From IMG/VR virus record IMGVR_UViG_3300032213_001526, positions 1 through 58,012 of that record: a stretch of DNA of 58,012 nucleotides, one strand, 5' to 3'. The notes under the pieces were generated by a model that saw only the letters and a list, made by a program, of their open reading frames with translations, was not told where the DNA came from and did not search any database. Within the stretch, counting starts at the first letter, position 1. Every line of letters starts with the position of its first letter. The position numbers were made by a program, and so were the translations under genes. Below, in pieces: positions 4,241 through 44,944 of this stretch. The stretch is from a virus. Lineage: Duplodnaviria; Caudoviricetes.

Positions 4241-5515
4241 ATGTCGTTACTGCTGCTCTTTCAGAACCCAAACGTAGGGTTGCGCGTCACCGTGCTGCAA
4301 GGCAGTACGGTGATTGCGCGGCGGCAGATACGCGCCTCAGAACTGGGCGCAATTGATCAAACGTACACGTTTGCGCTGACGTTTGACGAGTTATTGACGC
4401 TCGGAGATGTTGATGTCACGCCATTAGATATTGAGCTGACGTTCAGCCCGACAGCCAGTGTGCGTGGCGTCGAGGTTGATAGCGCCAGCGTGTCAGTGGT
4501 GCCGGGTGTTTTTAGCACGCCGCCTTCATCACCACAGACCGCCACGGCTGGCGCGGCGAGTGCCACCGCGACTAGTGCAGCCCCAGTACTCGCTGTCGCG
4601 TTGACCGCAACGGCTGGGGTGTCAGTAGCGATCACGACCGCAGCGACGCCAGTCATATCTGTTGGCGGACTGACTGCTACCCCCACACCGTCTATTGCCA
4701 CCACAACCGCCGCAACGCCAAGTGCGTTGTTAAGCGGACTGACTGCGACACCCACGGCCTCTATCGCTACAGCAACTGGGCTGGCACCAGTGGTGGCGCT
4801 TGGCGCGGTAACGCGGACGACGACAGTTGCGACGGCAACAGCGACCAACGTAACCCCGGTGGCTGCGGTCGGCGCGATCACGGCCACCGCATCGACCGCA
4901 ATCGCTACCGCAGTCAGCCTGACCCCATTTGCGTCGTCTGGTGGGCTGCTGGCGCAGCCGACTGCCGCTGTCGCGACCACTGCCGGACTACAGCCCGCCC
5001 TTTTCGCTGGCGCAGTCACGGTCACTATGACGGCAACGACAGCAGCCGCGACAGTCAGCACCCCGACAACGGCGGCTGGCGCAGTCACGGCGACGCCGTC
5101 GCCTTCTACGGCAGCCGCTACGGCAAACACGCCAGCCGTCACGCTGGGTGCGGTGTCTCGAACACCAGCACCGGCCATTGCCGCCGCCGCCGCCGCCACG
5201 CCAAGCATCACGCTCGGCGGCATGGTCGCAGCGCCAGCCCCCGCTGTTGCCACAGGAACACCCAACGGCATCGGCACAGCTTCGACCTACACTCGTCCGC
5301 TTGGTGTCACGGTTGCCACCGCTGTTGCACGGGACATCTCGACTGGTGGCCTCGGCGCACTAGTGACTGGCATCGTCACCATTGCCATGCCGTCCGTCAG
5401 TGTAAGTAGCGCGGGTCCAACAGTCGTTGCTGTTGAAATGGCGTACCAAAGCGTTCTGGCTACGGCAGCACATGGCGGCGTAGCCGTTGCGATACGTTCA
5501 CGAAAGGGGGATTAG
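4241..5515 (+). CDS. Ala/Thr-rich repeat protein, putative fibre/virion protein
   Basis: about 10 degenerate ~23-aa repeats such as TATPTASIATATGLAPVVALGAV. Confidence 0.7.
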   Translation: MSLLLLFQNPNVGLRVTVLQGSTVIARRQIRASELGAIDQTYTFALTFDELLTLGDVDVTPLDIELTFSPTASVRGVEVDSASVSVVPGVFSTPPSSPQTATAGAASATATSAAPVLAVALTATAGVSVAITTAATPVISVGGLTATPTPSIATTTAATPSALLSGLTATPTASIATATGLAPVVALGAVTRTTTVATATATNVTPVAAVGAITATASTAIATAVSLTPFASSGGLLAQPTAAVATTAGLQPALFAGAVTVTMTATTAAATVSTPTTAAGAVTATPSPSTAAATANTPAVTLGAVSRTPAPAIAAAAAATPSITLGGMVAAPAPAVATGTPNGIGTASTYTRPLGVTVATAVARDISTGGLGALVTGIVTIAMPSVSVSSAGPTVVAVEMAYQSVLATAAHGGVAVAIRSRKGD

Positions 5516-5878
5516 GTGGCAATACCGGCTGAGATTTACTGCGACAACGACTTGCCGATTGAAGTAGGGCCAATCAATATCCGAGCCTTTGCGACCGGCG
5601 CGATCTCGCTTGGCACGGGTATTACGGTCAACGCCATGCTCTCGGCGACGAACACCGTCTCGGCAACCCCCATTCATGCAGACCTGTCCATTGTCCTCAC
5701 AGAGGGCGTCGGCTCGACTGCCGTGTTCTATGGCGGCTGGAACGGCGACAAGCTCACGTCGCGGCTGTTGCCGACCTACAAAGACGCGGTCGTCTACGTC
5801 ATCGTCTGGTCGGGGCAAGACTTCCGTGTCGTCGGCTCCGTGACCGTCCGCGACGTGCGTCCGCTAGACGAGGCATAA
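5516..5878 (+). CDS. hypothetical protein (Ig/BppU-like beta sandwich possible)
   Basis: abuts the previous stop; beta-strand pattern; good codon bias. Confidence 0.55.
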   Translation: MAIPAEIYCDNDLPIEVGPINIRAFATGAISLGTGITVNAMLSATNTVSATPIHADLSIVLTEGVGSTAVFYGGWNGDKLTSRLLPTYKDAVVYVIVWSGQDFRVVGSVTVRDVRPLDEA

Positions 5879-6177
5879 TGGCCCCCACGTTTGGACGCAT
5901 CCTCCGCATTACCGCTGGCCAGCCACTGACGGTGCCGATCTACGTGCCGCCGTCGTGGGCGAAAGAGCCGATTACCGTCGAACTTGCCGATTCGACGAGC
6001 ATACCGCTGGCCAGCACGCTCTCTGGCCGTGGGGCGTTCATTGCGCCAAACATTGCCACACGCACCTTCATGGCGCGTGACGTGCAGCTTCACGTTACGG
6101 ACGGAATGCGCCTCTATCTCGTCGCCCGCTGTCCGCTTGGCGCGGTGAGCGAGCCAGTGACGACGACCATCGGCTGA
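5878..6177 (+). CDS. hypothetical protein
   Basis: TAATG overlap; last gene before the hairpin at 6194. Confidence 0.55.
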   Translation: MAPTFGRILRITAGQPLTVPIYVPPSWAKEPITVELADSTSIPLASTLSGRGAFIAPNIATRTFMARDVQLHVTDGMRLYLVARCPLGAVSEPVTTTIG

Positions 6178-6193
6178 CGAGCGGACACTAGAA

Positions 6194-6219
6194 AGCCAGC
6201 GGTGGGCGGACCGCTGGCT
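6194..6219. terminator. 10-bp GC-rich hairpin, probable (possibly bidirectional) terminator
   Basis: agccagcggt/accgctggct just after the last + strand late gene; weak U-tract. Confidence 0.55.
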
Positions 6220-6857
6220 CTATAGTAGACATGGAAACGGTAGTAACCCTGTCGTTCCGCCAAGTTTTTTTGCTGTCACCGAAGTAGCTCGCCGCTTCCT
6301 GCTCTCACACAGGCATCGGGTCGTGGCCGTCTCCCCGCACCAGCATATTAGCGGTAGGCTGTCATTCGCGCAAGGGCCATTAGATACTTTGAGTGCGTTT
6401 GAGGTCACCTACGTGTGACCACTGACCGTCGTGGGCGTGCCAAGTCGTTTACGCTCCACCAGTAGGTGAGAGAGCGCTGGTCGTGAATGACGACGCAAGC
6501 TTGACTCTGTGATAAAAGACGGGTGGCTTACTGCGACCGAGATGGCTTCCGTGTCCCTTGGCGCAGACACAGCCTCCACTCCATCAGGGTCAGTCAACGC
6601 CGTAAGCGCGTTGTCGTAGTCGCTCGGCTTGCGCCGTACTACGAGCTTCAAGGGTTGGTGGAGCACCATGTTGCTCGACAGCAGAGCATGGAATTGCTTG
6701 ACCTTGTCGCGGTATCCCATTGAGTCGGCCACGCACCGTCTACCGTAGGCCCCGAGAAACAGAATAAAAACTCGGTCGAAGCCTTTACGGCCTCGATGAC
6801 ACGAAGTGTACGGCAAGGCCACGGGTTCCGCCAGTGCCAATACGCCGATCTTCCTAC

Positions 6858-6972
6858 ATCACAAATCTGCTGTCGGAGAGCACATTTGTGATCTACACGA
6901 GAGCAGATTTGTGATATTTTGGCCTTTGGGCTAAAAGTATACGTCTAAAACGGCATATAGATCACAAAAATG
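6858..6972. repeat. cluster of 17-bp repeats GA(G/C)AGCA(G/C)ATTTGTGAT
   Basis: inverted copy 6858..6874, direct copies 6876..6892 and 6899..6915, partial inverted copy near 6961. Confidence 0.85.
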
Positions 6973-6989
6973 ATGCTTTTTGGACCACG

Positions 6990-7014
6990 TAAGTCCTTAT
7001 AAATCAAGGACTTA
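6990..7014. promoter_or_regulatory. palindrome containing an IHF-consensus site
   Basis: taagtcctt-N7-aaggactta; aatcaaggactta (7002..7014) fits WATCAANNNNTTR. Confidence 0.6.
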
Positions 7015-7053
7015 GCGAATGTTTCAGTCACACTACCGGATGACTGTACTAGG

Positions 7054-7062
7054 TGCTATATT
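7054..7062 (+). promoter_or_regulatory. putative extended -10 early promoter
   Basis: TGcTATATT, preceded by the cagtca-N10-tgactg inverted repeat (7025..7046). Confidence 0.5.
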
Positions 7063-7069
7063 TCAGGTT

Positions 7070-7590
7070 GTTCCATTGTAGTCAACGTCGTGATGACGTA
7101 GCGCACGAGGAAACGGTGCAACGGCCCGATGCCTGCACCGCGTCAGCGCCCGCCGCTGATGGCATCGGAGATATTTGACAACTGACTCACAAGCCCTTGC
7201 GCCATGCCATGTACGCAAGGCCACCAGCTATCACTGGTGCCACAGTCACGAAGAGCCCGTTTCCGGCCAAACCAGCGAATACAAGCTACAACCAATGGCG
7301 TCTGGTCCGCCGTCCGCTACCTATCCACAAAGTCTGGACGTGATGTTTTCGGCCCGCCCTAAACCAGCGTAACTGCCGCACGTTCGGTGAATGGAGAATA
7401 GTCGGTGTGAAATCCGGTAGGTAAGTGACTGGCGAAGGCGTCGACCTCCGCCCGCAGGATGTAAATCCCCGCTCCGCTCGGCCTGCGATAACGTACTGAC
7501 AGTACGTAGCGTGACACTCTCACAATTTGCCGTGTAGCTGCCATGTAATCCTGCATGGCAGCGCACGCGACGTTCCGCCGCCCGCCTCAC
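7070..7590 (+). ncRNA. candidate large structured RNA or structured 5' leader of the early operon (family unknown)
   Basis: no credible ORF; more than 10 complementary helices including a closing helix 7084..7092/7566..7574 and crossing (pseudoknot-type) pairings. Confidence 0.5.
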
Positions 7591-7612
7591 ATAACCCATT
7601 TTGGAGCCAACC

Positions 7613-7981
7613 ATGAAACGCCTTCCTGAACACAATCACGCAATGGTTCTCGCCGCGTACCAAATCTTCCGCGCCACCACGATGAAAAAAAAGCTAACGC
7701 CCGCGTCATTGTTTGACGCTTTCATGCGCGGCGCTTCCAATATCAGCAAGTACGAAAAGCGTTACTTCAAAGACAGCAGATTCACGCCCGCTGCCGCTGA
7801 TCCTGCCGCTGCGTTCGGCGAAGCGCTCATGCTCTCAGAGTTGCTGTCACGCGATGGCTTCTTTGAGTTGCCGCCCGCCAGCGCTGCCCACATGAGCCTC
7901 AGCGACTACGGTTCTCACATCGCTCAGCGTCTCATGTTGGTGCCGAACTTCAACATCGCACTGCCGCCGTTCGCCCGCTAA
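7613..7981 (+). CDS. early hypothetical protein, paralog of 8722..9105
   Basis: GGAGCC RBS; shares LFDxF and FGxALM..E...G.F motifs with 8722..9105. Confidence 0.75.
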   Translation: MKRLPEHNHAMVLAAYQIFRATTMKKKLTPASLFDAFMRGASNISKYEKRYFKDSRFTPAAADPAAAFGEALMLSELLSRDGFFELPPASAAHMSLSDYGSHIAQRLMLVPNFNIALPPFAR

Positions 7982-8004
7982 CTCTCACTGCACTGGAGCC
8001 TACC

Positions 8005-8403
8005 ATGCGTACCGTCAATACTGCCGACACCGAATCACTCCTGCCCGTTCAGTCACGCGATGGCGTCTACTCGCGTTACAGCGGCAGCGAACTGCAATCT
8101 TCGCCCGCTATTCTCACTTACAAGATCATTCTTGGCCTCACCCGTCTTGCCGAGCTTGGCTACAAGCTGCCGGACATTGCGAACATGGTCGAGACTCGCG
8201 TCAGAAACCCGAACGCGATCCTGTCGCTCGGTCAAGCGTACACAGTGTTTGCCGCCGCCCGCGTTGATGAAATGCGAAAGGCGCAGACGCGGCAGCCGAT
8301 CCTGCCCATTTCGCGCCGCAAGGTGAAGCGCAGCGCGTTGGTTGATTCCATCGTCGAGCGTATCGCATTGCGTTGCGACATCCTCTGGAGCATGGAACCG
8401 TGA
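8005..8403 (+). CDS. early hypothetical protein
   Basis: GGAGCC RBS; 132 aa. Confidence 0.7.
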   Translation: MRTVNTADTESLLPVQSRDGVYSRYSGSELQSSPAILTYKIILGLTRLAELGYKLPDIANMVETRVRNPNAILSLGQAYTVFAAARVDEMRKAQTRQPILPISRRKVKRSALVDSIVERIALRCDILWSMEP

Positions 8404-8693
8404 GTCAAACCCGTTCTGGTCTGGCGACTGACAAAGACACGCGAGCGGCAATCCGGTATGTGATTTGGCAGTTAGACGCCAAGCTCCGCGCCCTGTACAT
8501 CGAATGGCGAGCGGAGTGCGGTTCGCGTGATCGTGCGAAGTACGACGCCGCGTTGCGTGCCATGTGCCCTGACAACATCCACTACAAGTGGTTCACGAAG
8601 GAACGCTTCGGCTTTCGCTTTTCTTTCCGTGGCGACCACGAATTCATCATTCGCGTCAGCGAAACACAAATCGTCTGGTACCGAGTCCACTAA
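8400..8693 (+). CDS. early hypothetical protein
   Basis: GTGA overlap with the previous gene. Confidence 0.65.
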   Translation: MSQTRSGLATDKDTRAAIRYVIWQLDAKLRALYIEWRAECGSRDRAKYDAALRAMCPDNIHYKWFTKERFGFRFSFRGDHEFIIRVSETQIVWYRVH

Positions 8694-8721
8694 CCGCCCG
8701 CCCACCTTACTGGAGCCACCA

Positions 8722-9105
8722 ATGAAAGCCATCACGCAAGCCGATAACGCCATCTTAATCGGCGCAGCTATTTTATACACCGCACGAGAGCGCCATGGCA
8801 TTGCGCCCAATGTGCTGTTCGATGTGTTCTGCGATGAGATCGACGCGGTAACTACGCTGCGAATCCCCGGTAAAGCGGCCAGTTTTCGCCGTGTGGCACG
8901 CTACACCAAGTCCGCCAACGCCCGCGCCTACGCTTCGTTTGGTCGTGCGCTCATGACGATGGAAGCGATGGAGCTTGAAGGTGTGTTTGTCCCAAAGCTT
9001 GCCAATCGCGTGCCGTTCGTGTCTGAAAAGTACGAAGAAGTCGTGTTAGGTCGGATGCTGGCGACGGCGTTAATTCCTGACTTTATCCCGTCGTCCGATG
9101 GTTGA
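8722..9105 (+). CDS. early hypothetical protein, paralog of 7613..7981
   Basis: GGAGCC RBS; shared motifs. Confidence 0.75.
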   Translation: MKAITQADNAILIGAAILYTARERHGIAPNVLFDVFCDEIDAVTTLRIPGKAASFRRVARYTKSANARAYASFGRALMTMEAMELEGVFVPKLANRVPFVSEKYEEVVLGRMLATALIPDFIPSSDG

Positions 9106-9352
9106 TTTCAAGCCGCAACCTCGGCAGCCGCTTCCAACCTACACGACAGCCCGCCCTATTCTTTTGCAGCACATCGCGTTGCAGTCGCAAGTCCAGCGAG
9201 ACTTGCAGTACGTCGCTTTTCTCGCGTGCGCCCACAGCAGCCTGCTGGACGCACGCCGCACTACAGACCCTGACATTCGCTCGTATTTGGCGTTTCGCGC
9301 ACGGTGCCATGTCCGCATGGCCCGATACTGGCTCCAGTTGACGCAGTCATGA
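9098..9352 (+). CDS. hypothetical protein
   Basis: overlaps both neighbours in operon fashion. Confidence 0.5.
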   Translation: MVDFKPQPRQPLPTYTTARPILLQHIALQSQVQRDLQYVAFLACAHSSLLDARRTTDPDIRSYLAFRARCHVRMARYWLQLTQS

Positions 9353-9750
9353 AAGGCATTGACAGCACCGTTGTACTCATGAGCGCCCTGCTTGTGTGCG
9401 CTATCGCGTATGTCTCCGAGTACGCGCCGCCTCCACGGTATACCGCGTGTGTTGAGGCCACACGCGCCCTGCCATACCTCGCCATTTCGCGGCGTGGCGA
9501 ACCGCTCTGGACCGCGCCAGAAACTGTCTGGCGTTGCGACAACACCACACTAACCAACGCCCGCCCATGTACATCGTCTTACTCCTTGCGCTCTACGCAC
9601 TTGCCATGCACGCGCAGAAGCCTCCCGTCCGCTCTCGTCATCTGTGGTCCTGACTTCCTTTCACTGGAGACCGTATGCGGTTCAACAACAACGCCGAAAT
9701 CCGTCAGCACGCCGCCCGCCTTGCTTCCGCGCTTGCGATCAGCACCATAG
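9349..9750 (+). CDS. hypothetical protein with an N-terminal hydrophobic segment
   Basis: ATGA overlap; VVLMSALLVCAIAYV; 3' half less convincing. Confidence 0.4.
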   Translation: MKGIDSTVVLMSALLVCAIAYVSEYAPPPRYTACVEATRALPYLAISRRGEPLWTAPETVWRCDNTTLTNARPCTSSYSLRSTHLPCTRRSLPSALVICGPDFLSLETVCGSTTTPKSVSTPPALLPRLRSAP

Positions 9751-11703: not shown

Positions 11704-12044
11704 CATTAACCGCCCAAGCTGCCGATGCGGTTCGACGTAGCTTTGCGACAACCTACCGCAGCAAAGTGATGGAGCTTCGCAACCGATGGCTGCATCGCGA
11801 CACGCGCAGTCCCGCACTGACCGCACTGGACGAGCATCGGCTGCATTGCTTTGTCAGAGATTTTGACAAGCTGACCGCAGATACGGAGCACCACGTTCGC
11901 GTGTCGATCTACTACGCCCTGCAAACGTCTTGCACGGCCATGCAGGTCGCGTCCTGCTACTCGTTTGTCATGTTGCCGAAAACGCCGCCGCGCATTATCC
12001 CCCGCTTGTCTGATGCGCCTGAGTCTGTTGTACAAGAGCCGTAA
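11700..12044 (+). CDS. hypothetical protein
   Basis: ATGA overlap. Confidence 0.55.
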   Translation: MTLTAQAADAVRRSFATTYRSKVMELRNRWLHRDTRSPALTALDEHRLHCFVRDFDKLTADTEHHVRVSIYYALQTSCTAMQVASCYSFVMLPKTPPRIIPRLSDAPESVVQEP

Positions 12045-12065
12045 CCTACACATGGAGCCTCTCAC

Positions 12066-13955
12066 ATGCCAGCCCGCTATACCTCTCACAATCGTCGTCT
12101 GGAGCCACTCATGAGCCATCTGCTTGCCGTGCTGTTGACGTGCCGCAATGCCGAACGCGCCGCTACGTCCCTTTCCGAGGCAGCCATTCGCGAAGCGCTT
12201 GTATTGCTGAATCGCATAACGCTTCGCAATGACTTGTCCGAGGCGTCCCGTACTCGCCTTGGTGCGCGACTCGACGCTGCACGCAAGGCGAGTCGCTCCG
12301 CGTACTTTGAGGCGATCCACTTCCGCCATGTGACCGCAGAACGCCCGCCCAACGATCTGAGGCAGTTCTTCGATTCAGGTTACTACACGACCGACAACGA
12401 GATGGCTCGCGCGGTGCCCGAGTTAGTGCGGCGCAACCGTGATGCTGCGTATCTTCTGAGCGCGTCGATGGTGGCGTGTCGGTTCTGGCAGCTTGGCGTG
12501 TTGGTTGCACGGTACCACGTCCCCAACATTAGCTCGGCGTTTGCCACGTCCGCTGATGGCGTCCAGCTTCGTATTCCGCAGCTGGACCGCTCGCAGTTGG
12601 CCGCACTCCCCCATCCCGATGAGCGTGAGGCGGCGTTTCGCGCTCAGTTTCCTGAACCGACGTACGGTGCGCCGTTTATCATTCCCGATGCACTGTGGCG
12701 CTACAGCCAGTCGTCGCCGTCGCAGTGCGCGGCGTGTAGCGCGTCGTGCTTGCACGGCGGCACGGACCTTACCGCCCCGCCAGCGCAGGAATTTGCAGGT
12801 CGCATGTACTGTACATCGTGTGCGTCGGCAATGGCACGGTGCGACTTGTGCCATCTGCAATCTCCCAGTTTGGCTCGGACGCACATCATACCAGTCGGCA
12901 CTCCGGTGCCGTACCGTTCTTCGCAGCTTGTTTCTGGCCCGCGCGTTTGTCCAGTGTGCGTAGCCAACGCTGGCTTGACGACACACAACGGCTTTGTCGT
13001 CCCGCACCATGTCGCTGTGAACATGGTGTCGGCGACGATTCAGTCGTACAGCTTCCAGCCGACGTACCGCATTAACGTAGACGCCAATGAGCGGCTTGCC
13101 CCGTCTACGCTGTGCTTTGGCATTGAGCTAGAGTGTGGTCACACGTTTGGCACTGCGCGGCAGCAGACCATTTTGGACGGCCTCGCGTCTCCCGATATCT
13201 ACTTCAAGAACGACGGTAGCATCACTGGCTTTGAGATGATCTCCCACCCGTTTACATGGCGCTACTGGAACGCGACTGGACGCGACGTATGGCGTGAGCG
13301 GCTGCGCTTCATTCAGGCGGCTGGCGTTCGGTCGTACAATGCCCCCGGCTGTGGTATGCACGTTCATATGTCGCTGGCCGCGTTTACGGTCGCGCAAACC
13401 GCCCGCGTACTAGACTTAGTCTACGGCTGTCCTGATTTGTTCCAGAAGATTAGCCAGCGTGACATTTTTGATTACTGCCGGTTCAACAATCCCGACGTGA
13501 CAACAGCGACACTGCGGACGCGCCGTGCTGTGGCGGCGCACAACGACACCATGCAGAAGTACGCACGTCGCAGTGTTGGTGCCCAGCGACTTGTGGACAA
13601 GGCGCACAGCAATGGTGAGCGGCGCGTCGCTATCAACTTCCCCAACAACAAGCCGACGCTTGAAGTCCGGATGTTCCGTGGCACGTTGCACACGCCGTCG
13701 TTCGCCAAGAACATCGAAGTGTGCCACGCCCTCCATGCGTTCACGCTGGACAATAGCATCGACAGCATTTCCTCTGCACGCGAGTTTGTCACCTTTGCGT
13801 ACGACAACGAGCGTGTGTACCCGAACCTTGCCGCGTTCTTGGATCGCTGGCACAAGAATCTGCGCCCGCAGCGTCGCGTCGCACCGCCGCAGTACGCCGT
13901 CGTTCGCACCGCACCGTTGTTTGAGTTTGACCGCGCTATTGCCACCCAGTCCTGA
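12066..13955 (+). CDS. putative amidoligase (COOH-NH2 ligase, Amidoligase_2-like) with a Cys-rich Zn-binding region
   Basis: FGIELE, DGSI..FEMISHP, CGMHVHMS, R.VAINF, TLEVRMFRG; several CxxC pairs upstream; alternative start 12111. Confidence 0.85.
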   Translation: MPARYTSHNRRLEPLMSHLLAVLLTCRNAERAATSLSEAAIREALVLLNRITLRNDLSEASRTRLGARLDAARKASRSAYFEAIHFRHVTAERPPNDLRQFFDSGYYTTDNEMARAVPELVRRNRDAAYLLSASMVACRFWQLGVLVARYHVPNISSAFATSADGVQLRIPQLDRSQLAALPHPDEREAAFRAQFPEPTYGAPFIIPDALWRYSQSSPSQCAACSASCLHGGTDLTAPPAQEFAGRMYCTSCASAMARCDLCHLQSPSLARTHIIPVGTPVPYRSSQLVSGPRVCPVCVANAGLTTHNGFVVPHHVAVNMVSATIQSYSFQPTYRINVDANERLAPSTLCFGIELECGHTFGTARQQTILDGLASPDIYFKNDGSITGFEMISHPFTWRYWNATGRDVWRERLRFIQAAGVRSYNAPGCGMHVHMSLAAFTVAQTARVLDLVYGCPDLFQKISQRDIFDYCRFNNPDVTTATLRTRRAVAAHNDTMQKYARRSVGAQRLVDKAHSNGERRVAINFPNNKPTLEVRMFRGTLHTPSFAKNIEVCHALHAFTLDNSIDSISSAREFVTFAYDNERVYPNLAAFLDRWHKNLRPQRRVAPPQYAVVRTAPLFEFDRAIATQS

Positions 13956-13985
13956 GCCTCTCTTTTCTCCGACCTATCTCTCACT

Positions 13986-15311
13986 ATGTGCGTACTCATC
14001 TATAAACCCGCTGGTGCATCCATCAGCGAAAACATTTTGCGCGGTTGCTTTGAGCGCAATGACGACGGACTCGGCATCGGCTACTCGGACGGCTCGACCC
14101 TGAGCATTTGGCGGACACTGAAAAACATCGACGAAGCCTGCAAGCGCGTGGAAATGCTGTACGACTATCCCGCGATGATCCACTTTCGCTATGCGACGCA
14201 CGGCGGCGTGTCGATGGACAACGTTCACCCGTTTTGGATCAACGACAACCGCCGCGCGTTGGTTGGCCATAATGGCGTCATCCATATTACGCATGCTCCC
14301 GGTGAGTCTGACACGCGGTCGTTCGTCAGCAACGTGCTTGGCAACATGAAGGACGGCTGGTGGAACAACCAGATTGCCAAGACGCAAATCGAGAAGCTGC
14401 TTGGCGGCTCCCGACTGGCGATCATGGAAGAGGATGGAAAGTGTACGTTTCTCAATAAGTATCAAGGTGAGACTACGGCTGATGGCGTGTGGTTCTCAAA
14501 CTCCCAGTTTAAGAACTTTCTTGCGCCATCTGCAAGATCGCTGCCCGCGCACAACATTATCGCGGCGACCGGACTGGAAGCGCCGCGTCAGGTCCACAGC
14601 AACAACTCGCAGTATTCGTGGCACGGAGAGCGCGACCCTTTTCAGTCGAAGTCGGTGGTCGCGCCGAAGCCGCCGACGATGACTGGCCAGACTCCTACAT
14701 CGGCGATGACGGTTTCACCGGCACTACCTCCGATGACCCCGGCGACGCCTTCTATGACGACACCATCGACGACGCCGAAGGCGCCCTCCTTAGTCTCCAG
14801 CGTTGGTGGAATGGTCTCAGCGACGGCGAGCGATTCCTCGCCGCTGACTACTTTGAGCGGACCGCTACACGACTCCGAGGTCAAAGCGTGGACTGACGCC
14901 CTCGGCATCGACTGGATCAACGACTACGCGGTCGGCTATGTGTCGATGCCCAATGGCGTGTATGGCCGCGAAGAGTACCACTGCGAAAAGCACGTTCCGG
15001 CAGACATTCGCACTGCAATAGACCCCACGGTCTCTGCAATCAATGCGATTGACTTGCTCGACGCGCATTTCGTCGAGGCCAAGTGTCACGAGTGCTACGA
15101 GCGACTGTGTACGAGAGCCCGCTTTGAGTACGCGGCGTTTATGGCCACCACGATGGAAGAAGAGGACGACTATCGTCCTCTGCCTAAATCCCGTTCACGC
15201 CGTCGCAAAGGACGGAAGGAGGCCACGCGCACGACGCGCAGCACGACCGAATCGGAGTCCGGATCGTTGGAGCTTGTCAGCACCAACGACACACCCTCCA
15301 GCAACCGTTAA
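13986..15311 (+). CDS. class II (Ntn) glutamine amidotransferase with a C-terminal extension
   Basis: N-terminal MC nucleophile, N.DG.G, HFRYATHG, NVHPF, HNG, SDT; then a Pro/Thr/Ser linker and a HCEKH...CHEC domain. Confidence 0.88.
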   Translation: MCVLIYKPAGASISENILRGCFERNDDGLGIGYSDGSTLSIWRTLKNIDEACKRVEMLYDYPAMIHFRYATHGGVSMDNVHPFWINDNRRALVGHNGVIHITHAPGESDTRSFVSNVLGNMKDGWWNNQIAKTQIEKLLGGSRLAIMEEDGKCTFLNKYQGETTADGVWFSNSQFKNFLAPSARSLPAHNIIAATGLEAPRQVHSNNSQYSWHGERDPFQSKSVVAPKPPTMTGQTPTSAMTVSPALPPMTPATPSMTTPSTTPKAPSLVSSVGGMVSATASDSSPLTTLSGPLHDSEVKAWTDALGIDWINDYAVGYVSMPNGVYGREEYHCEKHVPADIRTAIDPTVSAINAIDLLDAHFVEAKCHECYERLCTRARFEYAAFMATTMEEEDDYRPLPKSRSRRRKGRKEATRTTRSTTESESGSLELVSTNDTPSSNR

Positions 15312-16305: not shown

Positions 16306-16356
16306 GCTGGTTGGCCGCACGGCACGCCTGCTGTGCGGCCCGCCAGCCGCTTCTTT
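16306..16356 (+). terminator. putative intrinsic terminator
   Basis: ggccgcacggca/tgctgtgcggcc stem extended by gctgg/ccagc, followed by ttcttt. Confidence 0.55.
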
Positions 16357-31111: not shown

Positions 31112-31305
31112 GTGACGTGAAAGAACTATGCGACAAATGTGGCGACTACCGCTGCATTTGTCTGAGCATCCTCACACCCGAGATGGCTGCGGTGATTGAG
31201 GCGGCAAAGGCGTGGGCCTTCTCGGATGGTTCGGAGTTCGGGTTGGACGAATGCGAGAAGCTTCTTTCCGCAGTCAACGCACTACGTTTGCGAGAAACCG
31301 CATGA
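31108..31305 (+). CDS. small Cys-rich protein
   Basis: CDKCGDYRCIC; AVIEAAKAW. Confidence 0.6.
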   Translation: MSDVKELCDKCGDYRCICLSILTPEMAAVIEAAKAWAFSDGSEFGLDECEKLLSAVNALRLRETA

Positions 31306-32945
31306 GCCACACACTCCCGCGCACCGTACGACGCAAGGCCGACCGCACGCGCAAAAAGGTGGAGCAGCGCGTCCTCGGTGACGGGGTGACGTTTGAAGGC
31401 AGCGAGTATTCGTGGATTCAGTTCTTGACGCCCAAAGAGCGAAAGGAACTGGACCTACTGCTGCTCGACGTAAAGCCGGTTCTGAGCTTTCGGCAGTTTA
31501 TTGCACTGGTCAAGCCCGAGTTTGAGTTTCACTGGTACCTCGACGTACTGATCCGCGTACTGCAAGACGTGGCAGACGGGTCGCGGACGCGAGTGATGAT
31601 CTTCATGCCGCCACGCCACGGCAAGTCGGAACTGGTCTCACGCCTTTTCCCTGCGTACTACCTGTATCGGCATCCGAAGCGGAACGTCGGCCTCGTGTCC
31701 TATGGTGCCGACCTTGCGTATGAGTTAGCGGGTGCGGCACGCGACTTGTTTTTCCGCCATGACGATGGCCAGTCTACTGCGTCCCGTGCTACAAAGAACT
31801 GGCGCACGACCAGCGGTGGCGGACTGTGGGCAGACGGTATTGGCGGCACGCTGACTGGTAAAGGCGCCAACCTGCTGATCTTGGATGACCCGACCAAGAA
31901 CGCGCAGGAGGCCGCGTCCGTGACAACACAGCGCCGGAACATTGACTGGTACTCGTCAACCTTTTCGTCCCGTAAGCAGCGGCGACAGGCTGATGGCTCT
32001 GCCTCGGCTGTCGTGGTCGTTGGCACCCGTTGGCACGAAAACGATATTCTCGGGTGGCTGCTGGCCACAGAGCGCACCTCGTCCGAGAAAACGGCGGAGC
32101 GCTGGCACGTTCTCTGCTTCCAAGCGATCAAAGATAGCGCAGACATGGAGGAGTGGCCCTCATGGTGTACGGACGAGGACGACTCTGATCCGCGTGATGA
32201 CGGCGACGCACTCAACCCTGCGTGGTTCACGATTGACGACTTGCTCAAAGAGCAGAGCAAGGGGCGGCATTACTTTGCGGCACTGTACCAACAGCGGCCT
32301 CGCCCACGCGAAGGTACGATGTTCCAGTGGCAGTGGTTTCACGTCCTCAAGGAGCCATACCTCGGCCCCGGCTTGCTGGTCATGCACTTCGACTTGGCTG
32401 GCACAGACGGTAACGTCAGCGCGGGTGCCGATTACACGGCTGGCTGTGCAATGGTTCGCACACCGGAAGGGCGCTTTATTATCCACAAGGTAGCGCGTGG
32501 CCAGTATTCACCCGCACGGCGCGATCACTTTATTAAGCAGGAAGCGTACGCGGTCGCCAACGAGTTCGGGGGTCTTCATCGGCTCCGGCTTGGCTTGGAG
32601 CAAGAGGCTGGCATTGGTGGTGCCGAGCGCATTGCGGCAGCGACCCGCGTGCTGTCCGCGTTCAGCCTTTACGTTGAGCCAGCGACCAAGTCCAAGTTCC
32701 TGCGTGCCGAACCCTTGGCCGCACAGGCAGAGCTAGGCAACGTGTGGATCGTCGAAGGGGAGTGGAACGGTGAGTTCCTTGACGAACTGTGTTCTTTCGG
32801 GCCGGACGGCGGCGGACGCAACGACGACATGGTCGATGCCGCCTCTGGTGCGATGAACAAGCTGGCAGAACTGGCTGACAACGACGTACCCCTTGTCCTG
32901 CCGGTCCTTGGCGAGATGTACAGTCCCTTCAACGACGGCGAATAA
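31302..32945 (+). CDS. terL: terminase large subunit
   Basis: MPPRHGKS Walker A, LILDDP Walker B, GTRWHENDI, YQQRP, FDLA and DDMVDA nuclease motifs. Confidence 0.95.
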   Translation: MSHTLPRTVRRKADRTRKKVEQRVLGDGVTFEGSEYSWIQFLTPKERKELDLLLLDVKPVLSFRQFIALVKPEFEFHWYLDVLIRVLQDVADGSRTRVMIFMPPRHGKSELVSRLFPAYYLYRHPKRNVGLVSYGADLAYELAGAARDLFFRHDDGQSTASRATKNWRTTSGGGLWADGIGGTLTGKGANLLILDDPTKNAQEAASVTTQRRNIDWYSSTFSSRKQRRQADGSASAVVVVGTRWHENDILGWLLATERTSSEKTAERWHVLCFQAIKDSADMEEWPSWCTDEDDSDPRDDGDALNPAWFTIDDLLKEQSKGRHYFAALYQQRPRPREGTMFQWQWFHVLKEPYLGPGLLVMHFDLAGTDGNVSAGADYTAGCAMVRTPEGRFIIHKVARGQYSPARRDHFIKQEAYAVANEFGGLHRLRLGLEQEAGIGGAERIAAATRVLSAFSLYVEPATKSKFLRAEPLAAQAELGNVWIVEGEWNGEFLDELCSFGPDGGGRNDDMVDAASGAMNKLAELADNDVPLVLPVLGEMYSPFNDGE

Positions 32946-40088: not shown

Positions 40089-41051
40089 ATGACGAACATT
40101 CGTAAGGCACGCCCCACGCCGGGTGATGTGCATGTTAATGCTCCGCTGACGAACGTCGCAGTGGCGTGGTGGCAGACGCAGACTAACTACGTGGCTGATC
40201 AGATTTTCCCGATCATCCCCGTGGCGAAGCAGAGCGACCTGTACTACAAGTGGAACAAGGAAGAACTTCTCCGTGACGAAGCGGCGCCTCGCGCTCCGGG
40301 TACGGAATCGGCGGGTGGTCGCTTGTCTGTCTCGACGGACAACTACTCGACCAAGGTCGAAGCGTTCCACAAGGACATCGACGACCAGCTTCGCGAGAAC
40401 GCGGACTCGGTGCTGGCCCTCGACTCGTCGGCTACCCGTTTTGTCGCGCAGAAACTTCTGACGCGCCGTGAAACAGCGTTCTTCGCGAAGTATTTCACGA
40501 CTGGCGTGTGGGGCACGGATGCCTCGCCGTCGACGAAGTGGAACGCCGCCAGCTCTACCCCGCGTGCGGACGTAGACGCTGCCAAGATGAAGATTCTCGG
40601 CGACACTGGCTTTATGCCGAACGTCCTCGTGATCGGACCGTACGTGTTGACGGGTCTCCGCAGCAACGCGGAAGTCCGCGACCAGTTCAAGTACGTGTCG
40701 GCGGATTCCATCGACACGGCAATGCTGGCTCGCTTCTTCGGGGTTGACCGTGTAGTCGTGTCCAACGCGGTCAGCACGACGACCAAGGAAGGGGCTGCTA
40801 CGCAGACTACTGGCTTCCTCGCTGGCAAGCACGCGCTCCTGATGTACGCGGCCCCGTCTCCGTCGATCCTTGAGCCGTCCGCTGGGTACATCTTCAACTG
40901 GACCGGCAACACGGGTTCGCTGGCCGGTATGCGGATTAAGCGCTTCCGCATGGAGCATCTGGCGTCTGACCGTATTGAGGGCGAAATGGCGTACGACTTT
41001 AAGGTCGTGGCCACGGAACTCGGGTACATGATGAACGCCGCTGTGTCCTGA
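40089..41051 (+). CDS. major capsid protein
   Basis: 320 aa; VH....LTN.AV, ADQIFP..PV.KQ, PN.LVIG; strong codon bias; followed by a terminator. Confidence 0.85.
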   Translation: MTNIRKARPTPGDVHVNAPLTNVAVAWWQTQTNYVADQIFPIIPVAKQSDLYYKWNKEELLRDEAAPRAPGTESAGGRLSVSTDNYSTKVEAFHKDIDDQLRENADSVLALDSSATRFVAQKLLTRRETAFFAKYFTTGVWGTDASPSTKWNAASSTPRADVDAAKMKILGDTGFMPNVLVIGPYVLTGLRSNAEVRDQFKYVSADSIDTAMLARFFGVDRVVVSNAVSTTTKEGAATQTTGFLAGKHALLMYAAPSPSILEPSAGYIFNWTGNTGSLAGMRIKRFRMEHLASDRIEGEMAYDFKVVATELGYMMNAAVS

Positions 41052-41073: not shown

Positions 41074-41110
41074 AGTGGCCACCCGCAACGGTGGCCACTT
41101 TTCATTTCTT
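41074..41110 (+). terminator. intrinsic terminator after the capsid gene
   Basis: agtggccacc/ggtggccact stem followed by tttcatttctt. Confidence 0.75.
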
Positions 41111-44132: not shown

Positions 44133-44176
44133 TTGACGCAACGGGGCGACTGGCTATCATTAGCAGTCGCCCCGTT
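44133..44176 (+). promoter_or_regulatory. 13-bp hairpin overlapping a putative promoter
   Basis: stem 44140..44152/44164..44176; TTGACG-16bp-TATCAT with the -10 in the loop. Confidence 0.55.
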
Positions 44177-44666: not shown

Positions 44667-44944
44667 CACACATCATCGAATCAGGGGAGGCGCACTTCTG
44701 GAACGAACAGCCAGAAGTGCCTCTCTACTTGGTGCCAGTCTACGAGGGGTTTTGGACATGCAGCACGATGCGCTCCGTTGGCATGACCGCTGGCAGCATC
44801 CCCTTTGACCGAGTCGTGTGGTACTGCGAGCAGTTCTTAGGGGCCAATACACCGGATGAGTTGGATCGGTACGTCCGGCTGATCCGTCGAATGGACAGTG
44901 CCTACGCAAAGGCAACCGCCCCTAAGAAGAAGGAGTCTGCATGA
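44624..44944 (+). CDS. frameshifted C-terminal part of the tail chaperone (gpT-like)
   Basis: open -1 frame VQWDIDWGSR...F......R..GM..G.IP...IRRMD.AY. Confidence 0.8.
   Translation, partial: VQWDIDWGSRLDDLAHIIESGEAHFWNEQPEVPLYLVPVYEGFWTCSTMRSVGMTAGSIPFDRVVWYCEQFLGANTPDELDRYVRLIRRMDSAYAKATAPKKKESA

What the first reader, a model, noticed from the sequence alone, without database searches (positions are those of the whole stretch)
7070..7590. Candidate ~500-nt multi-domain structured RNA with pseudoknots heading the early operon
Seen: an ORF-poor stretch after TGcTATATT that is almost fully pairable. Closing helix 7084-7092/7566-7574; 7109-7116/7257-7264 (8 bp); 7126-7133/7161-7168 (8 bp) crossing 7114-7120/7134-7140; 7143-7148/7154-7159; junction 7183-7187/7244-7248 enclosing 7195-7201/7214-7220 and 7222-7227/7234-7239; 7311-7315/7336-7340, whose loop (7318-7325) matches 7416-7423; 7393-7404/7442-7449 (bulged); 7453-7458/7482-7487; 7491-7497/7501-7507; 7537-7545/7554-7562. 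It also has T-loop-like ggtgtgaaatcc and ggatgtaaatcc. I cannot match it to tRNA, tmRNA, RNase P, a riboswitch or an intron. Inference: a new large phage ncRNA (size range of ROOL/OLE-type RNAs), a ribozyme, a decoy RNA against host defence, or an antitermination leader.
Basis: partly seen in the sequence, partly recalled or inferred. Interest (0 to 1): 0.8.

Follow-up and report, generated by a model that had tools for sequence, protein, structure and literature searches.

The report
Untranslated phage early leader, one hairpin
The stretch is a real non-coding leader in front of the first early gene of an orphan phage, but apart from one strong hairpin and a few short ones it folds no better than scrambled sequence, so it is not shown to be a large structured RNA.

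Summary
They pair only 152 of 521 nt. As a nested fold they score -103.5 kcal/mol, against an MFE of -182.

- **Long-range pairings:** the closing helix, the junction helices and the "pseudoknots" are what chance gives. Three of these helices have about 0 pairing probability.
- **Whole stretch:** it folds like shuffled sequence, z -1.06, with 12 of 100 shuffles as good. Without its last hairpin z is -0.25.

Four things hold up:
- It is non-coding, and is part of the only large gap (6178-7612) in a densely packed, one-strand phage contig.
- It matches no Rfam family and no tRNA or tmRNA.
- It has an excess of short perfect local hairpins: 6 against 1.0 expected, reached by 0 of 300 shuffles.
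- It has one strong 19-bp hairpin at 7527-7570 (z -5.4), ending 42 nt before the first early start codon.

No homologue was found in any collection I could search, so covariation cannot be tested.

Best reading: a long 5' leader, or intergenic control region, of the early operon, with a processing or stability hairpin. That is ordinary. A discrete large ncRNA is not excluded but has no positive support.

The parts
6187..6226 (+). Hairpin directly after the last late/tail ORF (5878-6177); probably the late-operon terminator. It marks the left edge of the 1.4-kb non-coding gap.
   Evidence: Inverted repeat I6. Perfect 10-bp stem at 6194-6219, -20.9 kcal/mol. Local z -2.8 to -4.0.
6858..6973 (.). 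Operator- or iteron-like repeats: the 13-mer ATCACAAATCTGC at 6858 (+), 6880 (-, 1 mismatch) and 6903 (-), plus a degenerate copy at 6961.
   Evidence: The copies with 0 or 1 mismatch occur nowhere else in the window. Repeat families D1, D2, I3, I4 and I15. Local fold z -5.2 to -7.5. The region overlaps the AT-richest 200 nt of the contig, 6886-7085, GC 0.385.
6990..7014 (.). Perfect 9-bp hairpin or palindrome about 40 nt upstream of the -10-like element.
7054..7062 (+). Extended -10-like element TGCTATATT; candidate early promoter, with no good -35.
   Evidence: It is the only match to TGNTATAWT in the 58-kb window, though 47 of 100 shuffles have at least one match. The tool's sigma-70 scan lists no promoter in 6100-8200. 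A transcription start near 7069 is inferred, not shown.
7070..7612 (+). Non-coding leader or spacer before the first early ORF.
   Evidence: No coding signal. No Pfam match for 3 internal ORFs. No Rfam or tRNA match. Part of the largest gene-free gap in the contig, 1465 nt as called.
7114..7220 (+). Chain of four overlapping perfect 7-8-bp hairpins: 7114-7140, 7126-7168, 7159-7210 and 7195-7220. They are either alternative pairings or an H-type knot topology. Significance is marginal.
   Evidence: 2 of 1000 shuffles reach 4 within 110 nt, but two other such clusters lie inside genes of the same window. The fold of 7095-7275 has z -2.02, with 5 of 200 shuffles as good.
7491..7507 (+). Hairpin with a 7-bp stem and 3-nt loop; on its own it is near chance.
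   Evidence: z -1.59, 16 of 200 shuffles as good. Pairing probability 0.92.
7527..7570 (+). The one clearly non-random element: a 19-bp hairpin (4+4+11 bp, two 1-nt bulges, 4-nt loop) with no U-run after it. It ends 32 nt before the Shine-Dalgarno sequence and 42 nt before the ATG.
   Evidence: -27.3 kcal/mol, z -5.41, 0 of 200 shuffles. The - strand gives -25.0, z -4.90. Pairing probability 1.00. Removing it takes the leader's z to -0.25.
7603..7981 (+). GGAG ribosome-binding site (7603-7606), ATG at 7613 and the first early ORF (122 aa); a paralogue lies at 8722-9105.
   Evidence: Sequence read. Coding score +0.146. Paralogy E 9e-7. No other relative in 5.8 bn proteins or 1.84 bn representatives.

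Best explanation
Positions 7070-7612 are the untranslated 5' leader of the early operon. They form the right-hand part of the only large intergenic control region (6178-7612) in a lytic-type phage whose genes all run in one direction.

The region is laid out in this order:
- the late-operon terminator hairpin;
- an AT-rich block with operator-like repeats;
- an extended -10-like promoter;
- about 540 nt of leader;
- GGAG and ATG of the first early gene.

The leader is not one large folded RNA. It carries a handful of short local hairpins and one strong 19-bp hairpin (7527-7570) just upstream of the ribosome-binding site.

I infer that this hairpin works at the RNA level. It would be either a processing site for a double-strand-specific RNase (RNase III type) or a 5' stabiliser that defines the mature 5' end of the early mRNA. 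This is how RNase III sites act in the T7 early transcript and in the lambda N leader.

**Shown:** the stretch is non-coding; its position; the hairpin's stability; the absence of a global fold.

**Inferred:** the transcription start; that the stretch is transcribed at all; the role of the hairpin.
For: **Gene layout**
- All called genes but one weak ORF are on the + strand.
- The only gap above 600 nt is 6178-7612.
- It lies between virion/tail-type ORFs (phrog_10356 'virion structural protein' for 1275-2171) and small orphan ORFs. Those are followed by helicase genes (Dda-like, DnaB-like).

**Non-coding:**

**Promoter and operator block upstream:**

**Ribosome-binding site and start:** GGAG, 6 nt, then ATG at 7613.

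**The hairpin 7527-7570**
- z -5.41, 0 of 200 shuffles.
- It is slightly more stable on the + strand (-27.3 against -25.0), because two G.U pairs become mismatches on the other strand.
- At 19 bp it is about two helical turns. That this is the length RNase III substrates need is recalled, not taken from a call.

**Other intergenic hairpins in the contig**
- 9 of the 19 perfect hairpins of 8 bp or more in the window are intergenic.
- Only one of those nine (41074-41099) is directly followed by a T-rich run.
- One, at 16313-16340, lies 37 nt before a gene start.

**Sequence of the hairpins:** the leader's six hairpins have unrelated sequences. That fits structure at the RNA level better than repeated binding sites for one protein.

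**Precedent**
- RNase III acts on five processing signals in the ~7000-nt T7 polycistronic early precursor (PMC3867540, passage seen).
- 5'UTR elements and 5'UTR-derived RNAs are common in Pseudomonas phages (PMC10914365, passages seen).
Against: - No transcript data exist. No RNA run holding the stretch was listed.
- The promoter is only a -10-like match with no -35. The tool's scan lists no promoter. The host is unknown, so the transcription start is a guess.
- The hairpin is nearly as stable on the - strand (z -4.90). Its core is a perfect 9-bp DNA palindrome, so a DNA-level role is not excluded.
- There are no homologues, so nothing shows the hairpin or the leader is conserved.
- A leader of 540 nt is long, and most of it has no assigned role.
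- The excess of short hairpins and the chain at 7114-7220 are not explained by a plain spacer.
Confidence: 0.5

Rival explanations
1. A discrete large structured non-coding RNA (~500 nt) made from the early promoter: a new ROOL/OLE-sized RNA, a ribozyme or a decoy.
For: - The stretch is non-coding and long, and matches no known family.
- It has an excess of short local hairpins: 6 against 1.0, reached by 0 of 300 shuffles.
- The overlapping hairpin chain at 7114-7220 can be drawn as an H-type pseudoknot.
- The terminal strong hairpin could mark a 3' end.
Against: - The global fold has z -1.06, and -0.25 without the last hairpin.
- The middle 300 nt has z > 0.
- The closing and junction helices have about 0 probability, and the proposed fold is 78 kcal/mol above the MFE.
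- Long-range complementarity is at chance.
- No U-run follows the terminal hairpin.
- There are no homologues and so no covariation.
- Two other 4-hairpin clusters lie inside ordinary genes of the same contig.
Confidence: 0.08
2. A DNA-level element rather than an RNA: the stretch belongs to the region that holds the genome ends, the packaging site or the replication origin. The palindromes are then protein-binding or cruciform sites.
For: - It lies exactly where one-direction lytic phages with fixed ends have their termini, between the last late and the first early gene. That T7-type genomes are laid out this way is recalled.
- Next to it are the AT-richest 200 nt of the contig and iteron-like repeats.
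- The stems are perfect Watson-Crick palindromes, about equally stable on both strands.
- Cumulative GC skew changes slope near 5-7 kb.
Against: - The palindromes all differ in sequence.
- There are no tandem repeats.
- DnaA-box matches are at chance: 8 against 5.5, with 17 of 100 shuffles reaching 8.
- A single Logan contig of the likely source run spans 6204-8897 without a break. This is weak evidence and does not exclude ends.
- The AT-rich and repeat features lie upstream of 7070, not inside the finding.
Confidence: 0.2
3. A regulatory leader that works by conditional premature termination or alternative pairing (an attenuator, or a Rho target with antitermination). It would yield short 5'UTR-derived RNAs, as described for Pseudomonas phages.
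For: - There are four mutually overlapping hairpins at 7114-7220.
- The middle is long, untranslated, C-over-G and unstructured: GC skew -0.14 to -0.16 and z > 0.
- Precedent: 42 terminators inside phage 5'UTRs, giving RNAs of under 250 nt (PMC10914365, passages seen).
Against: - No hairpin in the leader is followed by a U-run.
- C over G is general for the + strand of the early region and is not specific to the leader.
- No antiterminator protein was recognised: the early ORFs have no Pfam or PHROG match.
- No boxA/boxB-like pair was seen by eye. This was not tested with a model.
Confidence: 0.15
4. The stretch hides one or more small protein genes, for example 7175-7372 (65 aa; GGAG lies 4 nt before its TTG).
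For: - ORFs of 41-65 aa on the + strand and 104 aa on the - strand exist.
- GGAG at 7167-7170 precedes the TTG at 7175.
Against: - All of them have negative coding scores (-0.05 to -0.51 per codon) and flat GC3 of 0.52-0.66, against 0.71 for the genes used to train the score.
- 3 of 3 ORFs tested have no Pfam match.
- The SD-to-start spacing is short.
Confidence: 0.05

Closest known systems
Left-end early region of coliphage T7 (tandem host-RNAP promoters, long leader, RNase III site just before gene 0.3)
   Same: - Genes run in one direction.
- A non-coding block of several hundred nt lies between the genome's late end and the first early gene.
- There is a stable bulged hairpin of about two helical turns a few tens of nt before the first start codon.

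The T7 layout is recalled (Dunn & Studier 1983, not read). The five RNase III signals in the T7 early precursor are from the PMC3867540 passage seen.
   Different: - There is no sequence or protein similarity to T7.
- Cleavage is untested.
- Only one promoter-like element was seen, and it lacks a -35.
- Terminal repeats are not shown.
Lambda pL-N leader (nutL plus an RNase III-sensitive hairpin before N)
   Same: An early-operon leader downstream of an operator-controlled promoter, with a large hairpin before the first gene (recalled).
   Different: - No boxA/boxB pair or N-like protein was recognised.
- The leader here is about twice as long.
- There is no repressor gene with a recognisable fold: the - strand ORF 6409-6840 has no family match, a coding score near zero and a low ESM recognition score.
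5'UTR-derived small RNAs and premature terminators in Pseudomonas phages (ONT-cappable-seq study, PMC10914365)
   Same: Structured elements inside phage 5'UTRs. These are orphan elements, conserved only among close relatives (passages seen).
   Different: - Those RNAs are under 250 nt and are defined by mapped transcript ends.
- Here there are no transcript data and no terminator-like site in the leader.
Large structured ncRNAs of phages and prophages (ROOL, GOLLD, OLE, HEARO)
   Same: The size range, and for ROOL and GOLLD the phage context (recalled).
   Different: - No covariance-model match, even at E up to 10.
- No global fold signal.
- No tRNA neighbours.

Membership tests
Any Rfam 15 family (includes ROOL, GOLLD, OLE, HEARO, riboswitches, self-cleaving ribozymes, introns, RNase P, tmRNA, 6S) | A covariance-model score at or above the family's gathering threshold. 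| tested here: not met
   - 0 matches over the whole window at the gathering thresholds.
- In 6100-7700 at E up to 10 there are 8 matches, all far below gathering (best 21 bits against 70).
- Only one touches the finding: 7552-7607, a snoRNA model, 15.7 bits against 40.
   0 genes in the window. The two 12-mers differ at 2 of 12 positions. My rough by-hand estimate is that a repeat that loose is expected several times by chance in 520 nt.
Large structured ncRNA in general | Folding energy clearly below dinucleotide shuffles. | tested here: not met
   z -1.06, 12 of 100 shuffles as good. z -0.25, 31 of 60, without the last hairpin.
Large structured ncRNA in general | Covariation supporting the helices across homologues. 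| not testable with these tools
   No homologue of the stretch or of the adjacent genes was found.
Intrinsic terminator / attenuator | A G+C-rich hairpin directly followed by a U-run. | tested here: not met
   The scan of 6100-8200 lists 2 terminator-like sites, neither of them in 7070-7612. The bases after 7562 are gcacgcgacgttccg.
RNase III processing site (T7 / lambda type) | A duplex of about two helical turns (~20 bp), often interrupted by a bulge or internal loop (recalled). | tested here: inconclusive
   19 predicted pairs with two 1-nt bulges, -27.3 kcal/mol. The length fits, but many other hairpins would fit too.
RNase III processing site (T7 / lambda type) | Cleavage by RNase III. 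| not testable with these tools
   This needs an enzyme assay or mapping of processed 5' ends.
Sigma-70 promoter | -35 and -10 hexamers at 16-18 nt spacing. | tested here: inconclusive
   An extended -10, TGCTATATT, is present and unique in the window. There is no acceptable -35, and the tool lists 0 promoters. The host is unknown.
Lambda-type N/nut antitermination | boxA plus a boxB hairpin in the leader, and an N-like protein. | not tested
   No model was available. No Pfam or PHROG family was found for the early ORFs.

The most novel reading that the evidence does not exclude
The leader, or its 5' part 7109-7265 with the chain of four interlocking hairpins together with the terminal 7527-7570 hairpin, is an orphan structured RNA made at the very start of infection. 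It would act on its own, for example as a put-like cis antitermination RNA or as a decoy for a host nuclease or defence sensor. It would belong to a lineage so poorly sampled that no relative exists to reveal covariation.
Probability: 0.08. Interest if true: 0.6.

Novelty: new member of a known kind. Interest (0 to 1): 0.2.

Why it matters
As it stands, this matters little. Long untranslated leaders with a processing or stabilising hairpin in front of phage early genes are textbook, as in T7 and lambda.

The useful result is negative. A list of hand-found helices that looks impressive in 520 nt of 58% G+C sequence is what chance gives. Only the local hairpins survive controls.

The phage itself is an orphan:
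- Its large terminase (TerL) is at most 35% identical to any deposited phage.
- Its first early gene family has no relative in 1.84 billion representatives.

Any mapped transcript from this lineage would therefore be new information. Its early control region (operator repeats, promoter, leader) is a clean candidate for such mapping.

Tried and rejected
**Homologue hunt — nothing usable**
- blastn 'distant' of 6800-7700 against 50,697 phage records: no match.
- IMG/VR by neighbouring proteins:
  - 7613-7981: 0 relatives.
  - 8005-8403: 0 relatives.
  - 12066-13955: 0 relatives.
- TerL in IMG/VR: 5 loci. The only close one (83%) is a 5.7-kb contig that cannot reach the leader.
- The 5.8-bn protein index returned only the window's own proteins or near-identical copies, plus two others:
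  - 7613-7981: itself.
  - 6409-6840(-): a 99% copy on a 38-kb contig.
  - 12066-13955: its own 100% entry, one 59% relative on a 5.1-kb JGI contig, and one at 28%.
- A profile of the two early paralogues against 1.84 bn representatives: only the two proteins themselves.
- Metagenome scan with the operator pattern: 1 hit, an AT-rich unrelated palindrome.
- Genome contigs with ORF 6409-6720(-): 0 relatives.
- Genome contigs with TerL: 80 loci kept, at most 45% identical.
  - None has DNA similarity to 6178-7612 (best E 0.12).
  - Only 1 of 23 window proteins (40089-41051) matched any of them.
- Hairpin pattern in IMG/VR: 9 hits, none with similarity in the flanks.

**Sequencing runs**
- No RNA holder was listed.
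- Contigs of 4 runs were laid:
  - X1, the likely source, spans the stretch.
  - X2, a low-depth near-identical strain, has no cover over 6840-7900.
  - X3 holds only 6419-6472 and 6612-6762.
  - X4 holds nothing.
- So there is no variation data and no transcript data for the leader.

**Other dead ends**
- No part of 6178-7612 is repeated elsewhere in the window (best 14 nt, E 0.26).
- No tandem repeats.
- DnaA boxes are at chance.
- TGCCATG and ATGCCAT are over-represented across the whole window, not specifically in the leader.
- ESM Atlas on the - strand ORF: recognition below the cut-off, best score 0.80.
- Supplementary tables of PMC10914365, which hold its UTR lengths and ncRNA lists, were not opened.

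Full report
**Context**

The window is a single IMG/VR virus record of 58,012 nt, classed as linear and estimated 77% complete. A crude gene call, trained on the long ORFs of the contig itself, gives about 80 tightly packed genes. All but one weak ORF are on the + strand.

The only gene-free gap longer than 600 nt runs from 6178 to the first early ORF.

- **To its left** are virion/tail-type ORFs. For example, 1275-2171 matches phrog_10356, 'virion structural protein'.
- **To its right** are small ORFs without any Pfam or PHROG match. These are followed by an amidoligase-like gene, a Dda-like helicase and a DnaB-like helicase.

The finding (7070-7590) is therefore the right-hand 40% of the one large intergenic region, between the end of the late genes and the start of the early genes.

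The phage is an orphan. Its large terminase (TerL) is at most 35% identical to anything among 50,697 deposited phages.

**Is the observation there?**

Yes, literally. All 13 ungapped helices pair completely at the stated coordinates. TGCTATATT is at 7054 and the two 12-mers are at 7404 and 7457. The 'bulged' helix 7393-7404/7442-7449 has unequal arms and I did not score it.

**Is it more than chance?** Mostly not.

- The 11 helices that can be nested pair 152 of 521 nt. That is not 'almost fully pairable'.
- As a structure they score -103.5 kcal/mol, against an MFE of -182.0.
- In the thermodynamic ensemble the closing helix (7084/7566), the junction helix 7109/7257 and 7311/7336 have mean pair probabilities of 0.01, 0.00 and 0.00.
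- Exact complementary 8-mers at any distance number 4, against 2.39 (sd 2.01) in 500 dinucleotide shuffles. For 9-mers it is 1 against 0.61. So an 8- or 9-bp long-range 'helix' or 'loop-loop pseudoknot' in 521 nt of this composition is expected.

| Stretch folded | z-score | Shuffles folding as well |
|---|---|---|
| 7070-7590, + strand (-182 against -175.4, sd 6.2) | -1.06 | 12 of 100 |
| 7070-7590, - strand | -0.90 | 18 of 100 |
| 7070-7525 | -0.25 | 31 of 60 |
| 7270-7525 | +0.37 | 37 of 60 |
| 7420-7525 | +0.17 | 38 of 60 |

In 160-nt sliding windows the whole middle (7180-7500) has z between +0.4 and +1.6.

**What does exceed chance**

*(a) Short perfect local hairpins*
- There are six independent stems of 7 bp or more with loops of 40 nt or less, against 1.00 (sd 0.93). 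This is reached by 0 of 300 shuffles and by 3 of 222 overlapping native tiles of the window.
- Without the last hairpin there are five against 0.85, reached by 0 of 300 shuffles and 7 of 253 tiles.
- Four of the six overlap one another in a chain at 7114-7220.
- Only 2 of 1000 shuffles of the leader put four within 110 nt. However, the native window has two more such clusters, both inside genes, so I treat the chain as marginal.
- The domain 7095-7275 folds with z -2.02, with 5 of 200 shuffles as good.

*(b) One strong hairpin, 7527-7570*
- It has 19 predicted pairs (4+4+11) with two single-base bulges and a 4-nt loop.
- It scores -27.3 kcal/mol, z -5.41, reached by 0 of 200 shuffles.
- On the other strand it scores -25.0, z -4.90.

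All of the leader's thermodynamic signal comes from this one element.

**What it is not**
- **Not coding.** The ORFs inside (41-65 aa on the + strand, up to 104 aa on the - strand) score -0.05 to -0.51 per codon with flat GC3. Flanking genes score +0.15 to +0.24. Three of three tested have no Pfam match.
- **Not a known RNA.**
  - There are 0 Rfam matches at gathering thresholds over the whole window.
  - With permissive filters on 6100-7700 there are only 8 matches at E up to 10, all far below gathering. Most are miRNA or snoRNA models landing on palindromes.
  - There are no tRNA or tmRNA genes.
- **Not repeated.** No part of 6178-7612 recurs elsewhere in the contig, and there are no tandem repeats.
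- **No intrinsic terminator.** No terminator-like site lies in 7070-7612.

**Surroundings**
- Directly after the last late ORF sits a 10-bp hairpin at 6194-6219.
- At 6858-6973 a 13-mer occurs three times, in both orientations, with 0 or 1 mismatch. A degenerate fourth copy is also present. Copies that good occur nowhere else in the window.
- This block overlaps the AT-richest 200 nt of the contig, 6886-7085, GC 0.385. It gives the strongest local fold signal of the region, z down to -7.5.
- The extended -10-like TGCTATATT at 7054 is the only match to TGNTATAWT in 58 kb. A single match is not rare by chance (47 of 100 shuffles). It lacks a -35, and the tool's promoter scan lists nothing.
- The first early ORF has GGAG at 7603-7606 and ATG at 7613.
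- The - strand ORF 6409-6840 has a coding score near zero and no family. Its ESM recognition is low, and its only database match is a 99% copy. I cannot say whether it is a gene.

**Comparative evidence**

I could not obtain any. Details are under Tried and rejected. In short:
- The stretch has no blastn match among deposited phages.
- The adjacent early gene family has no relative in 5.8 billion proteins or 1.84 billion representatives.
- The few relatives of other genes sit on contigs of 5-6 kb that cannot reach the leader.
- Pattern scans gave only chance hits.
- The laid runs gave no second version of the leader and no RNA.

Covariation, the decisive test, is therefore untested, not failed.

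**Mechanism**

The anatomy is a late terminator, an operator/promoter block, about 540 nt of untranslated sequence, a strong bulged hairpin, 32 nt of spacer, then SD and ATG. This is the anatomy of a phage early leader.

The closest textbook cases are the T7 left end and the lambda pL-N leader. In both, a hairpin cut by RNase III lies shortly before the first early gene.
- The T7 and lambda layouts are recalled.
- That RNase III acts on five signals in the ~7000-nt T7 early precursor is from PMC3867540, a passage seen.

Three observations fit an RNA-level role such as processing or 5' stabilisation:
- The hairpin's 19 pairs are about two helical turns.
- It is slightly more stable on the + strand.
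- Stable hairpins are common between genes in this contig: 9 of the 19 perfect hairpins of 8 bp or more are intergenic, and only one of the nine has a T-rich run directly after it.

The six leader hairpins have unrelated sequences. This argues against repeated binding sites for one DNA-binding protein and for structure as such.

None of this is shown. There is no transcript, no mapped start and no conservation. I put 0.5 on 'untranslated early leader with local regulatory or processing hairpins'. Within that, perhaps a third goes to RNase III processing specifically.

**Rivals**
- **DNA-level role (0.2): genome ends, packaging site or origin.** The position and the neighbouring AT-rich iteron-like block make this reasonable. 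The features that suggest it lie upstream of 7070.
- **Attenuator or Rho-target leader yielding short 5'UTR RNAs (0.15).** There is precedent in Pseudomonas phages (PMC10914365, passages seen). No terminator-like site is present here.
- **Discrete large ncRNA, as proposed (0.08).**
- **Hidden small genes (0.05).**

**Verdict**

The pairings exist. The large multi-domain fold is not supported. What remains is an ordinary-looking non-coding early leader, with one strong hairpin and a modest, unexplained excess of short ones, in a very poorly sampled phage lineage.

Noticed in passing
window 6858-6973: The 13-mer ATCACAAATCTGC occurs three times (one copy with 1 mismatch), in both orientations, plus a degenerate fourth copy. 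Copies that good occur nowhere else in the window. The block overlaps the AT-richest 200 nt of the contig and gives fold z down to -7.5. It looks like operators or iterons of the early control region.
   Followed up: partly
window 7613-7981 and 8722-9105: The first and fourth early ORFs are paralogues (24% identity over the full length, E 9e-7). A profile of the two finds no other member among 1.84 billion representative proteins.
   Followed up: yes
window 6409-6840 (- strand): This is the only sizeable minus-strand ORF near the finding. Its coding score is about 0, it has no family, and a terminator-like hairpin (6796-6776, T-run to 6766) lies inside its 5' part. A run from another study ('organism A') holds only 6419-6472 and 6612-6762 of it, so this piece is mosaic and shared with something else.
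   Followed up: partly
window 16313-16340, 41074-41099, 44140-44176, 44692-44720: These are strong perfect intergenic hairpins, -20 to -32 kcal/mol. Only 41074-41099 is directly followed by a T-rich run. 16313-16340 lies 37 nt before the start of the next gene. They may be processing or stability elements, or terminators.
   Followed up: no
window 12066-15311: An amidoligase-like gene (PF12224; phrog 'amidoligase enzyme') is followed by an ORF whose N-terminus weakly matches glutamine-amidotransferase-type PHROGs. The amidoligase has one 59% relative, on a 5.1-kb JGI contig.
   Followed up: partly
window 31302-32945; loci L018-L020, L030: The nearest large-terminase (TerL) relatives in species-representative genomes (43-45% identity) are in Acidobacteriota MAGs (Pyrinomonadaceae and others). 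This is a weak hint about the host lineage. The neighbouring genes do not match.
   Followed up: partly
window 9106-9675 and 11704-12110: Two further stretches, of 569 and 407 nt, have no ORF with a clear coding score. 9444-9466 holds an 8-bp perfect hairpin. They may be weakly scoring small genes or further non-coding spacers.
   Followed up: no
window 4241-5515: A 424-aa Ala/Thr-rich, internally repetitive ORF sits at the end of the tail module. It is dense in short inverted repeats (clusters at 4857-4913 and 5179-5222).
   Followed up: no
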